DNA of 64,000 bases, from the NCBI RefSeq assembly GCF_009914755.1, contig NC_060928.1. One strand, written 5' to 3'. The number at the start of each line of letters is the position of its first letter. Position 1 is the stretch's first letter. Below, one piece after another: positions 27,872 to 31,207 of the stretch. The position numbers and the translations under genes are program-made. This stretch comes from the human T2T-CHM13v2.0 reference genome, Homo sapiens. The notes below the pieces were generated by a model. The model was not told the origin of the DNA and did no database searches. It saw only the letters and a list, made by a program, of their open reading frames with translations.

Positions 27872-30407
27872 GGTATGATGCATATTAATTACTGAAATGA
27901 GAGTGTATTTTTGGCTAAAAGTAATCAGAGGCCTTTTAATTATTTGAGAGTAACCTAAAATGTCATAGGGCCTGTGTATTCAGTCATCTGAGGGGCAGGA
28001 AAACTGGCCCCACAGAGCAGATTTAACGGAAGAAAATAAAGCTGCATTCTGAATGTACCCATGAGCCCAGCTGGGTCAGCATATCAGCTATCCATTCAAA
28101 TACAATGCACTCCATATTATATCTTAAAATCTCTGAGGATGTCTCATTCTGACATCTTACCTGAATTATTAGCATGTCATATGTGTCAAGAAATTCCCTT
28201 TGTATGTATATAAATTATAGTTTAAGCTTCCCAACAAGTAAGTTAGAAATAAGGATACTGGATTAAAAGAGCCAGGAATCTAAATGTTGCTTAGCCTTCT
28301 ATTAAATAAGTGTCTGTAAATAACTGTCTGTAAATAACTGTAAATAAGCTGTAGTTTCCTCTTCTTAAAGGGCCTGCATAAGATGATTGCCAAGGCCTCT
28401 TTCAGCAAGAAAATTCTATTTGGAAAGGCTACAGTACACCACAGATCAAGGACCAAGTTTTCAGACTGCTCCACAGGTGAGCAGCCGTCAGACCAGCATA
28501 TCTGGCGTGAGATCGCTGCAATGGTTTGGAGTGATAAGCAAGAACTATTTCCAAAATGAGGTACTGACAAGCACAGTGGTGCCTTCCTTTGAAGGTGACA
28601 TGTTACCTTGGTGACAGTTTCCATATTATGCACTTGGCAATTGTGATCTGGGAATTCCCGAGCATTTTCCTGTATTCTCTGGAGTCCTGTATCACTCCTG
28701 CCATCCTCCTCCAGTGAGAAACAGAGTTGCAAAGCCATCTGCGACTGGTGTTCAGAGGGAGAGCCACAAATGAAAACCAGATCCTATGTTCTGAAATTCA
28801 CTGAAATTTTCCCTATTTTACTCCATTTTCCCTATTTTAACTAGGAGATTCTTGTCTGCTACAAGAGAATAAGCCAAAAGAGTGGGCAATTTTGATTTTA
28901 ATCAGTCCCCTCTTTGGACTTTTTGCCAACATGCATTAAGCTTAGGGAAGTCATCCATTCTCTATTGATTTAAAAAAACCTTCTAAATTAGAGAGCTAAT
29001 GACTAATCATTTTATGGTATCATATCCTTTTCGCCACAAACGGCTGTTTTTGAGGACTTTTAGTAATTCTTATTCAGTTTTTTAAAGTTCTAACCAAGTG
29101 ATGTTTCTTCAGCCTGATTGTTTTATTGTCCCACTCTGCTGTCTGCCACCCAACTGCCCAGTCTTTACCCTGAGACCTTGCTATGATCCAGCAACTAAAG
29201 AGTTAACAGGAAACGGAGAAGGAGGCCTCCTAGATCTGCTGAGGTGGGTAGCCAGTGTCTGACAGGCTGGTGTCCTTTCTGCACTGATTGTTACATATTT
29301 TAAATGTCATCCCTGATTGGGGTCTCTTGGAAAATATTCTCAACTTCTCTCCAAAAAGTATCTTTTTATCATCTCTCTTTCTCTCTCCACCCTCTTAGAA
29401 GTTAAAGGTCTCCAACTTTGTTTCCAAGCCAAACTCTATCAGCTGTTATCTTTATTCTGCCCTCCCCTAATACTCTCTCTTTTGGTACCTGATCCCTCCC
29501 TCTCAAGTGGTCATTCCTCTTAGCCTACAAACATATGCGTATTTCCTCCATCCTAAAAACACCTTCCATAGATCCTGCCTTCTTAGTCAAGCTCCAATTT
29601 CATCACTTCCCTTCCCTTCGATGAGAAAATTCTCAAAAGTTGCCACCTCCCCTTCACTTCCAGTCCTTGCTTTACTTTCAGCCCCCACTAATCTTTCAAT
29701 TCCACACCTCCTCTGTCAAAAATGCTCCTTGTAGCTTTACAGTGAATGACTCTTTGGTCACTGAGTTCCACTAACTGCTGCAGAGACTCCTGGTTGTCCT
29801 CCTCAAAACTCACCCATCCTTTTGTTCCTGGGATGTCATTGCAATCTCCTGGATTTCCTTCTTCCTCTCCGACTGCTCCTCACATATTCCTTCACAGGAA
29901 GCTCCTCTTGTGCAGAAGTGGTCCTCAACATCCTACGCCTGATCCTATCTCTTCTAACAGTGGTCTGGCCCTATGTCTAATGGTATCTCTTTGCAAACCA
30001 CTCATCCATCCTGTGTCTTCATGTGATCAGCCAGCCAGTACCTCCAGTTCAAAACCACACTCTAGGAAGCCTCCTTATTCATAGATCAGCCTGAAATCTG
30101 GGAGTTAGCAAGAACTCTTTTTCTCTTCAAAAGATCTCATCTTCATTCAGGAATTAAGTCCTATTTCTTAATTCTACTTTTACAACATCCTGGGAATCTG
30201 TCTTCTTTTTGTTTCTACTCTTTTAGGGCAAGTCCTGGTCACCTTTATTATGCTTGATTGCCCTACTTCTTCCCTCAGCCTCCACTCTCTCCCCTGCTCC
30301 AATCTCCCTTTCTTACTGTCCCCACTCTCTTTTTCAATGATTTGATTTTCTTTCTTTATTTCACCTTTAAAAAATATATGTCCTACATGCCCAATTAAAA
30401 AGTGAAA

Positions 30408-31195
30408 CTGAGAAGCTAAGCAGTGAGGAGAACAGCAACCCAGACCTCTCTGGAGTTGAGAATGATGATGCCGTCAGTATAGAAAGTGTTACAAACACTG
30501 AGGCCCGGCGCGGTGGCTCATGCCTGTAATCCCAGCACTTTGGGAGGCCGAGACGGGCGGATCACGAGGTCAGGAGATCGAGACTATCCTGGCTAACACG
30601 GTGAAACCCCGTCTCTACTAAAAATACAAAAAATTAACCAGGCGTGGTGGCGGGCGCCTGTAGTCCCAGCTACTCGGGAGGCAGAGGCAGGAGAATGGCG
30701 TGAACCCGGGAGGCGGAGCTTGTAGTGAGCCAAGATCGCGCCACTGCACTCCAGCCTGGGGGACAGAGCGAGACTCCGTCTCAAAAAAAAAAAAAAAGAA
30801 AGTGTTACAAACACTGAATGCTCTGATATACCTACAAACACGCCAAAGACACCTGAAAGGAAAAGTTGAGGAAAGGGAAAATGGAAGTCAAAGAAATGCA
30901 AATATTCTTTCTAATGTATAAACAGTCTCGAGGAAGATCATAACCAACCATTGTTTGGAGTTCAGTTTAACTGGCACAGTAAAAAAGGAGATCCATTAGT
31001 GTTTGCAACTGTAGGAAGCAACAGAGTTAGCTTGTATGAATGTCATTCACAGGGAGAAATCCGGTTGCTGCAATCTTACATGGATTCTGGTGGATCCTTT
31101 CCTGGGTTTTTAATATCTTTGGTCAAAGGAATTTATTTTCAACAAGTATACCAAAACTTTTATAAATTAATCAACTCCCTAAAGTTTTTTTCTAA
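30408..31195 (+). pseudogene. EED: EED retrocopy (about codons 21-142 plus probable retained intron start), split by an AluY
   Basis: Translates [30 protein letters not shown] [Alu] [88 protein letters not shown], matching the EED N-terminus with no introns and two stops. Flanked by aaaaagtgaaa at 30397-30407 and 31196-31206. Symbol is the parent gene. Confidence 0.93.
30502..30796 (+). mobile_element. AluY within the EED retrocopy
   Basis: CpG-rich, near-consensus AluY; perfect 21-bp TSD agaaagtgttacaaacactga (30481-30501 and 30797-30817). Confidence 0.97.
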
Positions 31196-31207
31196 AAAAA
31201 GTGAAAA

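What the first reader, a model, noticed from the sequence alone, without database searches (positions are those of the whole stretch)
30397..31206. Semi-processed EED retrocopy that appears to fossilise a retained U12 (minor) intron
Seen: EED codons ~21-142 are contiguous with no introns. Homology stops after ...TAC ATG GAT TCT GGT (parent Y-V-D-A-D) and is followed at 31092-31100 by GGATCCTTT, one base from the U12-type 5' splice site RTATCCTTT. About 100 non-coding bases follow, then an A-run. The 11-mer aaaaagtgaaa brackets the whole unit (30397-30407, preceded by tt as in an L1 endonuclease TT/AAAA site; 31196-31206), so those ~100 bases lie inside the insertion. Knowledge: minor introns are spliced slowly and often retained; I recall, without verification, that EED has a minor intron and an exon boundary at D142. 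Inference: the template RNA had its upstream major introns removed but kept the minor intron, and was polyadenylated or A-primed ~100 nt into it (TATAAA at 31161-31166 is a possible variant signal). It would be a germline record of a truncated EED/PRC2 transcript.
Basis: partly seen in the sequence, partly recalled or inferred. Interest (0 to 1): 0.8.

Follow-up and report, generated by a model that had tools for sequence, protein, structure and literature searches.

The report
EED retrocopy keeping a minor-intron stub
This is a dead, L1-made copy of an EED transcript whose three ordinary upstream introns were spliced out but which still runs about 100 bases into EED's single minor (U12-type) intron, so it records an old, incompletely spliced and prematurely ended germline EED RNA.

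Summary
Window 30411-31091 is EED exons 1 (from codon 21) to 4, joined without introns 1-3 and interrupted only by a younger Alu at 30502-30797.

Window 31092-31193 aligns in one piece with the first 103 nt of parental intron 4 on contig 11: 94 of 102 aligned bases match, with 1 gap. That intron starts GTATCCTTT and has TTCTTAAC 15 nt before its AG. It is the only one of EED's 11 introns with a U12-type 5' splice site. Papers name Eed intron 4 as the U12 intron and show it is retained under stress.

The parent has no A-run at the end point, so priming on an A-tract copied from the gene is excluded. A conserved TATAAA lies 27 nt upstream of the end.

The 11-mer that brackets the unit is real, but it occurs three times. 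A second Alu (31208-31470) reused the same target site, and only 2 A's remain as a tail.

Not shown here: the empty orthologous site, true polyadenylation, and whether retention was caused by the intron being minor (n = 1, chance 1 in 11).

This is a new member of a known kind, the partially processed retrocopy. Interest is moderate.

The parts
30397..30407 (+). 5' copy of the target-site duplication AAAAAGTGAAA, preceded by tt (a TT/AAAA-type L1 endonuclease site; that consensus is recalled)
   Evidence: D4.
30408..30410 (+). Three bases (ctg) between the duplication and the first EED-homologous base; extra or diverged bases at the 5' junction
   Evidence: Alignments start at 30411; compared by eye with the parent sequence.
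30411..30463 (+). EED exon 1, from codon 21 to codon 38 (5'-truncated)
   Evidence: matches contig 11 86186765-86186817.
30464..30501 (+). EED exon 2, first part; the junction with exon 1 is exact and intron 1 (GTAAGT...CAG) is absent
30502..30797 (+). Younger Alu inserted into the retrocopy (Y-like by recall), with a 15-A tail at 30783-30797 and a target duplication at 30481-30501 / 30797-30817
   Evidence: D1-D3, D6; the hub's repeat mask covers 30499-30809.
30818..30932 (+). EED exon 2, rest; in-frame stops TGA (W to stop) and TAA (K to stop) make it a pseudogene
30933..31025 (+). EED exon 3; intron 2 (GTATGT...TAG) is absent
   Evidence: 98% over 100 nt.
31026..31091 (+). EED exon 4 (codons 121-142); intron 3 (GTGAGT...TAG) is absent
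   Evidence: 60 of 66 bases identical.
31092..31193 (+). First 103 nt of EED intron 4 (the U12-type intron), retained. It contains the decayed 5' splice site GGATCCTTT (31092-31100; the parent has GTATCCTTT)
   Evidence: 94 of 102 aligned bases match, 1 gap, in one piece with exon 4.
31161..31166 (+). TATAAA, also present in the parental intron, 27 nt before the end of homology; a possible variant poly(A) signal
   Evidence: That TATAAA is a used variant signal is recalled.
31194..31195 (+). Two A's not accounted for by the parent or by the 11-mer: all that is left of an A-tail
31196..31206 (+). 3' copy of the target-site duplication AAAAAGTGAAA; it also serves as the 5' duplication of the next Alu
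   Evidence: D4, D8.
31208..31486 (+). Second Alu (body 31208-31470, A-run 31471-31479) with the third copy of the same target sequence (31475-31486): a second, independent use of the same target site
   Evidence: D8: 14 nt, 31194-31207 = 31473-31486.

Best explanation
The unit is a 5'-truncated, partially processed EED pseudogene made by LINE-1 target-primed reverse transcription.

The template was an EED RNA from which the U2-type introns 1, 2 and 3 had already been removed. The U12-type intron 4 was still in place, and the RNA ended about 103 nt into that intron. The most likely way it ended is cleavage and polyadenylation at a weak cryptic site (TATAAA, 27 nt upstream of the end).

Read from the parent gene, such an RNA would encode EED residues 1-142 plus 17 intron-encoded residues and a stop. 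No exon junction would lie downstream of that stop, so by the exon-junction rule it would escape nonsense-mediated decay and could reach the cytoplasm, where L1 ORF2p picks up templates.

The cDNA was inserted at TT/AAAAAGTGAAA on chromosome 4 and produced an 11-nt target duplication. Afterwards the copy acquired two in-frame stops and an internal Alu. A second Alu used the same target site, either before or after the EED insertion.

Shown: origin through RNA, removal of introns 1-3, retention of the start of intron 4, the U12 type of that intron, the duplication, and the lack of a templated A-run at the end point.

Inferred: polyadenylation at that point, escape from decay, and that slow minor-spliceosome splicing was the reason this intron was the one left.
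For: -: the own-genome search places window 30810-31206 on contig 11 as three pieces in order (exons 2, 3 and 4). The third piece runs on without a break to window 31193.
- exon 4 matches at 60 of 66 bases and the intron part at 94 of 102 with 1 gap.
- parental intron 4 (L003 1567-2665, 1099 nt) starts GTATCCTTT and has TTCTTAAC 15 nt before the AG.
- the other 10 introns start GTAAGT, GTATGT, GTGAGT, GTGGGT, GTAAGT, GTAAGT, GTAACA, GTATGG, GTATCA and GTAAGT. The motif RTATCCTT occurs once in the 11 parental stretches held, at the start of intron 4.
- (PMC4601534, passages): intron 4 is Eed's U12 intron and accumulates unspliced after SMN depletion.
- (passages): Eed/EED is listed as a minor-intron gene and is mis-spliced or retained when U11 or U6atac is removed.
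- the parent reads ...GTTCT then TTCTTAACCG at the end point, with no A-run.
- the read-through frame stops after 17 intron codons.
- the 11-mer sits exactly at both ends of the unit.
- neither flank matches the EED locus, so the copy does not continue beyond the duplications.
- the only other EED retrocopy found in the genome (contig 23) has all 11 introns removed, intron 4 included. The retained piece is therefore a property of this template, not of EED cDNAs in general.
Against: - Only 2 A's lie between the end of homology and the duplication, so a poly(A) tail is not demonstrated.
- TATAAA is a weak variant signal. With its start 32 nt and its end 27 nt before the end point, it sits at the far edge of the usual spacing (recalled), and no canonical signal is present.
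- The empty orthologous site could not be examined.
- The same 11-mer also flanks the neighbouring Alu, so the order of events and the exact pairing of the duplications are ambiguous.
- One case cannot show that the U12 nature of the intron caused its retention. If one of the 11 introns were hit at random, the chance would be 1 in 11.
- The retrocopy's 5' splice site reads GG instead of GT. This may be decay after insertion (8 of 102 intron bases differ). A splice-site mutation already present in the source allele cannot be excluded.
Confidence: 0.82

Rival explanations
1. The template was the same intron-4-retaining EED RNA but carried no real poly(A) tail. L1 reverse transcription started inside an unspliced pre-mRNA or a nuclear decay intermediate (possibly carrying a few added A's), by chance annealing of the T-rich nicked target strand.
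For: Only 2 A's are not accounted for at the 3' junction. The only signal-like hexamer is a weak variant at the edge of the usual distance. Unspliced U12-intron transcripts are reported to be nuclear exosome substrates (PMC4066798; title and abstract seen in the listing only).
Against: The parent has no A-tract at or just after the end point for the primer to anneal to. L1-mediated copying in trans strongly prefers polyadenylated templates (recalled). Tails of old retrocopies commonly shrink (recalled).
Confidence: 0.13
2. The retention has nothing to do with the intron being minor. Any EED intron could have hosted a premature end, and the hit on intron 4 is coincidence, or it came from a GT-to-GG splice-site mutation in the source allele.
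For: There is one case only, with a random expectation of 1 in 11. The retrocopy reads GG at the splice site. EED also has an intronic poly(A) site that is activated when U1 is blocked in HeLa cells (bioRxiv 10.1101/2023.02.24.529985, section 21 read). The text does not name the intron, and the supplements are closed.
Against: Eed intron 4 is documented to be retained preferentially under minor-spliceosome or SMN deficiency. All three upstream U2 introns were removed cleanly. The GG can be explained by the overall 8 of 102 differences.
Confidence: 0.2
3. The copy was once longer (the whole of intron 4 and downstream exons) and was cut back by a later deletion or by the neighbouring Alu insertion. 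On this reading the 5' 11-mer matches by chance.
For: The middle 11-mer is also the Alu's own duplication (D8), so taken alone it does not prove an EED end.
Against: The 5' copy sits within 3 nt of the first EED base and the middle copy within 2 nt of the last. The 11-mer is expected 0.20 times in 64 kb. The Alu has a perfect 14-nt duplication, which argues against an insertion-linked deletion. Nothing beyond the Alu matches EED (40 of 118 candidates scored, none at the EED locus).
Confidence: 0.03

Closest known systems
Partially (semi-) processed retrocopies and retrogenes, e.g. rat preproinsulin I (Soares 1985) and intron-containing retrogenes explained by intron-retaining transcripts (Zhang et al. 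2014). Both are cited in PMC5470649 (passages and reference list seen); the originals were not read.
   Same: An RNA-mediated copy in which some parental introns are gone and parental intron sequence remains, flanked by a target duplication.
   Different: Only the first 103 nt of the intron is kept and the copy ends inside it. The intron is U12-type. The copy is a dead fragment, not a gene.
Ordinary L1-made processed pseudogene, e.g. the full-length EED copy on contig 23 at 138709021-138710261
   Same: Same parent gene, similar age (21 versus 22 lineage-specific changes in 363 shared exonic sites), and introns 1-3 removed.
   Different: The contig 23 copy has all 11 introns removed, intron 4 included, and reaches the normal 3' UTR. 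The chromosome 4 copy stops in intron 4.
Processed pseudogenes used as 'genomic fossils' of past transcript isoforms (Shemesh et al. 2006; seen only as a reference, and the paper is not held)
   Same: The same logic: a retrocopy records a germline transcript variant.
   Different: Whether that survey contains this locus or any U12 intron could not be checked.
Intronic premature cleavage and polyadenylation (composite terminal exon) isoforms
   Same: Exon 4 is extended into the intron. There is an in-frame stop 17 codons in and a hexamer signal upstream of the end.
   Different: Neither a poly(A) tail nor a present-day transcript end at this position was shown here.

Membership tests
L1-mediated (partially) processed retrocopy | Parental introns absent at exact exon-exon junctions | tested here: met
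   Introns 1, 2 and 3 are absent (3 of the 3 introns that lie within the copied exons). The junctions match the parental exon ends.
L1-mediated (partially) processed retrocopy | Target-site duplication flush with both ends, at a TT/AAAA-type site | tested here: met
   An 11-nt AAAAAGTGAAA lies at 30397-30407 and 31196-31206, and the 5' copy is preceded by tt. Caveat: a third copy belongs to the adjacent Alu.
L1-mediated (partially) processed retrocopy | 3' poly(A) tail | tested here: inconclusive
   The run is 7 A's, 5 of which are part of the duplication, leaving 2.
L1-mediated (partially) processed retrocopy | Located away from the parent gene, with flanks unrelated to the parent locus | tested here: met
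   The copy is on contig 4 and the parent on contig 11. Neither flank hits the EED locus.
L1-mediated (partially) processed retrocopy | Empty site in species that diverged before the insertion | not testable with these tools
   No other primate genome is held, and the flanks are single-copy so no paralogous empty site exists.
U12-type (minor) intron: parental EED intron 4 | 5' splice site matching RTATCCTTT (consensus recalled) | tested here: met
   The parent reads GAT|GTATCCTTTCC. The motif is found at 1 of the 11 EED intron starts.
U12-type (minor) intron: parental EED intron 4 | Branch-site motif TCCTTAAC-like, about 10-20 nt from the 3' splice site, without a strong pyrimidine tract (consensus recalled) | tested here: met
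   TTCTTAAC (1 mismatch to the recalled consensus) is followed by 15 nt ending in AG.
U12-type (minor) intron: parental EED intron 4 | Dependence on the minor spliceosome shown by experiment | not testable with these tools
   Literature only, in mouse. Eed intron 4 is retained after SMN depletion (PMC4601534). Eed is mis-spliced in the U11-null limb (PMC13192996). In human cells, EED shows elevated minor-intron retention after siU6atac (bioRxiv 10.1101/2021.12.09.471104).
Intronic polyadenylation isoform | Poly(A) signal hexamer 10-30 nt upstream of the end | tested here: inconclusive
   Only the variant TATAAA is present, ending 27 nt before the end. It is conserved between parent and copy.
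Intronic polyadenylation isoform | Observed transcripts ending there with non-templated A's | not testable with these tools
   No expression or 3'-end data are on hand.

The most novel reading that the evidence does not exclude
EED makes a conserved short isoform, gated by the minor spliceosome. When intron 4 is not spliced promptly, cleavage and polyadenylation about 100 nt into it would give a stable mRNA that escapes nonsense-mediated decay. That mRNA would encode EED 1-142 plus 17 residues, which lacks most of the WD40 propeller. On this reading the chromosome 4 retrocopy shows that the isoform was already abundant in the primate germline or early embryo tens of millions of years ago, so PRC2 dosage would be tuned by a splice-or-terminate choice at a U12 intron.
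Probability: 0.15. Interest if true: 0.6.

Novelty: new member of a known kind. Interest (0 to 1): 0.4.

Why it matters
This is a clean natural record of splicing order. In one germline EED transcript the three upstream major introns were gone while the single minor intron was still present, and the RNA ended inside that intron. This fits the view that U12-type splicing is slow or rate-limiting. It also fits the documented sensitivity of Eed intron 4 to loss of the minor spliceosome.

It suggests a concrete test: is there a short EED transcript ending near +103 of intron 4?

It also suggests a survey: are U12 introns over-represented among introns kept in partially processed retrocopies?

By itself it is a single non-functional pseudogene fragment and changes no established picture.

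Tried and rejected
- A proxy for the empty site from paralogous repeats failed. The left flank (30100-30410) hit only itself. Among the 40 scored of 118 candidates for the right flank (31472-31800), all non-self hits start at or beyond window 31626 and belong to an unrelated repeat.
- More EED retrocopies that keep the intron: a 1241-nt query from the contig 23 copy gave 15 matches. These were itself, 2 pieces on chromosome 4 and 12 parental exon pieces, with no further copy. The tool scores only the best candidates.
- A known RNA family in or near the retained intron stretch: 0 Rfam matches at gathering score in the 3169-nt parental locus L003.
- Continuation of EED sequence beyond the second Alu: none found.
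- A chimeric single event, with L1 switching template from Alu RNA to EED RNA, was considered and rejected. A full copy of the target sequence separates the EED end from the Alu start, which a template switch would not leave.
- A DNA-level duplication was rejected because introns 1-3 are missing.
- Prior print:
  - The search 'minor intron' + 'retrocopies' found 1 paper, unrelated by title.
  - The search 'U12-type' / 'processed pseudogene' / 'retained intron' listed 15 of 261 papers. The 3 that hold all three terms are not about this by title.
  - The search 'EED' + 'intronic polyadenylation' found 14 papers. The one relevant paper does not name the intron.
  - These searches cover only the held library.
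- Earlier findings of this scan were not open, and Shemesh 2006 is not held.
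Full report
**What is in the window**

- aaaaagtgaaa lies at 30397-30407, preceded by tt, and again at 31196-31206.
- GGATCCTTT lies at 31092-31100 and TATAAA at 31161-31166.
- An A-run follows at 31194-31200.

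- An Alu at 30502-30797 interrupts the EED-like stretch. It has a 15-A tail and a perfect 20-21-nt target duplication at 30481-30501 and 30797-30817 (D6).
- A second Alu starts at 31208, directly after the 3' 11-mer. Its body ends at 31470 and is followed by a third copy of the same sequence at 31475-31486. (D8) show a 14-nt perfect repeat, 31194-31207 = 31473-31486.

The 11-mer occurs 3 times in the window against 0.20 expected, and 1 of 100 shuffles reached 3.

**Parent locus**

The window's own genome could be searched.
- Window 30810-31206 hits contig 11 in three ordered pieces (5 candidates, all scored):
  - 86191800-86191923, 91% identity;
  - 86193620-86193719, 98%;
  - 86196700-86196868, 91%, E 4.5e-59.
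- Window 30380-30500 adds 86186765-86186818.
- A piecewise blastn and per-exon alignments without gaps give this map:

| Window | EED part |
|---|---|
| 30411-30463 | exon 1, from codon 21 |
| 30464-30501 and 30818-30932 | exon 2 |
| 30933-31025 | exon 3 |
| 31026-31091 | exon 4 |

From the ATG, the exon lengths are 114+153+93+66 nt = 142 codons.

The three parental introns between these exons start GTAAGT, GTATGT and GTGAGT and end in pyrimidine-rich tracts plus AG. All three are absent from the window, so the copy was made through RNA.

**The decisive point**

The third piece does not stop at the exon end.
- Window 31092-31193 aligns to the 103 nt that follow exon 4 in the genome: 94 matches, 8 mismatches and 1 gap column. 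Exon 4 itself matches at 60 of 66 bases.
- The parental intron (L003 1567-2665, 1099 nt, contig 11 86196766-86197864) begins GTATCCTTT. Near its end it reads TTCTTAAC, followed by 15 nt ending in AG. The next exon was located through the contig 23 copy.
- Against the recalled U12 consensus (RTATCCTTT; TCCTTAAC 10-20 nt from the 3' site) this is a GT-AG U12-type intron.
- I checked all 11 EED introns. The other ten 5' sites are GTAAGT, GTATGT, GTGAGT, GTGGGT, GTAAGT, GTAAGT, GTAACA, GTATGG, GTATCA and GTAAGT. RTATCCTT occurs once in the 11 parental stretches held, at the start of intron 4.

**Literature on the parental intron**

All of the following rest on passages I read.
- PMC4601534 names intron 4 as the U12 intron of mouse Eed and shows that it accumulates after SMN depletion.
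- PMC3695530 took Eed from U12DB and reports altered splicing efficiency between embryonic stem cells and neural progenitors.
- PMC13192996 reports Eed mis-splicing in the U11-null limb.
- bioRxiv 10.1101/2021.12.09.471104 lists EED as a minor-intron gene with retention after siU6atac.

**How the RNA ended**

- At the end of homology the parent reads ...GTTCT followed by TTCTTAACCG, with no A-run. Priming on an A-tract encoded in the intron is therefore excluded, at least for the present-day sequence.
- TATAAA is present in both parent and copy, with its end 27 nt before the end of homology. No canonical hexamer is present.
- In the parent, the frame read through from exon 4 gives 17 residues and then TAA. 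An RNA ending at +103 would have its stop in the last exon. By the exon-junction rule (established knowledge) it would not be a target of nonsense-mediated decay.
- Only 2 A's separate the end of homology from the duplication. Polyadenylation is therefore the most economical reading, but it is not shown.
- A preprint uses an 'eed intronic PAS' as an example of premature cleavage after U1 blockade in HeLa cells (10.1101/2023.02.24.529985, section 21 read). The text does not say which intron, and its supplements are closed, so I draw no support from it.

**Limits of the insertion**

- The left flank (30100-30410) matches only itself in the genome.
- The right flank (31472-31800) matches nothing at the EED locus. 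Of 118 candidates 40 were scored, and all non-self hits start at or beyond window 31626.
- The EED-derived unit therefore lies between the first and second copies of the 11-mer, with 3 unassigned bases (ctg) at the 5' junction.

The structure is target copy / EED unit / target copy / Alu / target copy. This means the same TT/AAAAA site was used twice by the L1 machinery. Which insertion came first cannot be told from the sequence.

A single chimeric event by template switching would not leave the middle copy, so I reject it. A later deletion at the 3' end is unlikely, because the Alu has an intact 14-nt duplication.

**Age and state**

A second EED retrocopy lies on contig 23 (138709021-138710261). 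It has all 11 introns removed, intron 4 included. No third copy was found among the 15 matches.

Over 363 shared exonic sites:

| Class of change | Sites |
|---|---|
| Specific to the chromosome 4 copy | 22 |
| Specific to the contig 23 copy | 21 |
| Specific to the parent | 3 |
| All three differ | 1 |

The two copies are therefore about equally old, at about 6% change per lineage. With recalled human-lineage neutral rates this is very roughly 40-60 million years, and older than the internal Alu.

The chromosome 4 copy has two in-frame stops (TGG to TGA and AAA to TAA), is split by the Alu, and is not in the RefSeq table the hub supplied. It is a dead fragment.

The intron part differs from the parent at 8 of 102 sites. 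That is not significantly less than the roughly 12% expected if both lineages drifted freely (my estimate), so no claim of conservation can be made.

**What is and is not new**

Partially processed retrocopies are an established kind. PMC5470649 cites Soares 1985, Baertsch 2008 and Zhang 2014 (passages and reference list seen). I searched Baertsch 2008 (PMC2584115) for five terms and found nothing on retained introns or EED. The idea of pseudogenes as transcript fossils is also in print (Shemesh 2006, seen as a reference only; not held).

I found no paper linking a retrocopy to a retained U12 intron, or describing this locus, in the searches. These cover only the held library.

The finding is therefore a new, well-supported example of a known kind. 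The twist is that the intron kept is the gene's only minor intron (chance 1 in 11 if an intron were hit at random). With one case, that link stays an inference.

Noticed in passing
window 30397-30407, 31194-31207, 31473-31486: The same L1 endonuclease target (TT/AAAAAGTGAAAA) was used twice, once for the EED cDNA and once for an Alu (31208-31470). This left three tandem-ordered copies of the target sequence. The order of the two events is undetermined.
   Followed up: partly
window 30502-30797 (duplication 30481-30501 / 30797-30817): A younger Alu (Y-like by recall) with a 15-A tail and a perfect 20-21-nt target duplication is inserted into exon 2 of the retrocopy. It sets a minimum relative age for the EED insertion.
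   Followed up: yes
L002 (contig 23, 138707622-138710887), EED part about 1400-2850: A near-full-length processed EED pseudogene with all 11 introns removed and an internal deletion in the exon 5 region. From recall, the sequence on both sides looks like LINE-1 ORF2, so it may sit inside or between L1 fragments.
   Followed up: partly
L003 1567-1620 (parental EED intron 4, contig 11 86196766 onward): In the parent gene the exon 4 reading frame continues 17 codons into the U12 intron before a TAA. In the retrocopy that stop has changed to CAA.
   Followed up: yes
L024 about 100-146 (parental EED intron 11, 3' end): TCTTTAAC, which resembles a U12 branch site, lies about 27 nt before the AG of intron 11. 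However, that intron starts GTAAGT, so it is most likely a U2-type intron with a chance motif.
   Followed up: no
literature: bioRxiv 10.1101/2023.02.24.529985, section 21: An 'eed intronic PAS' is used as a model for premature cleavage and polyadenylation after U1 blockade in HeLa cells. The text does not give the intron or its coordinates, and Supplemental Table 7 is closed. It would be worth checking whether it lies in intron 4.
   Followed up: partly
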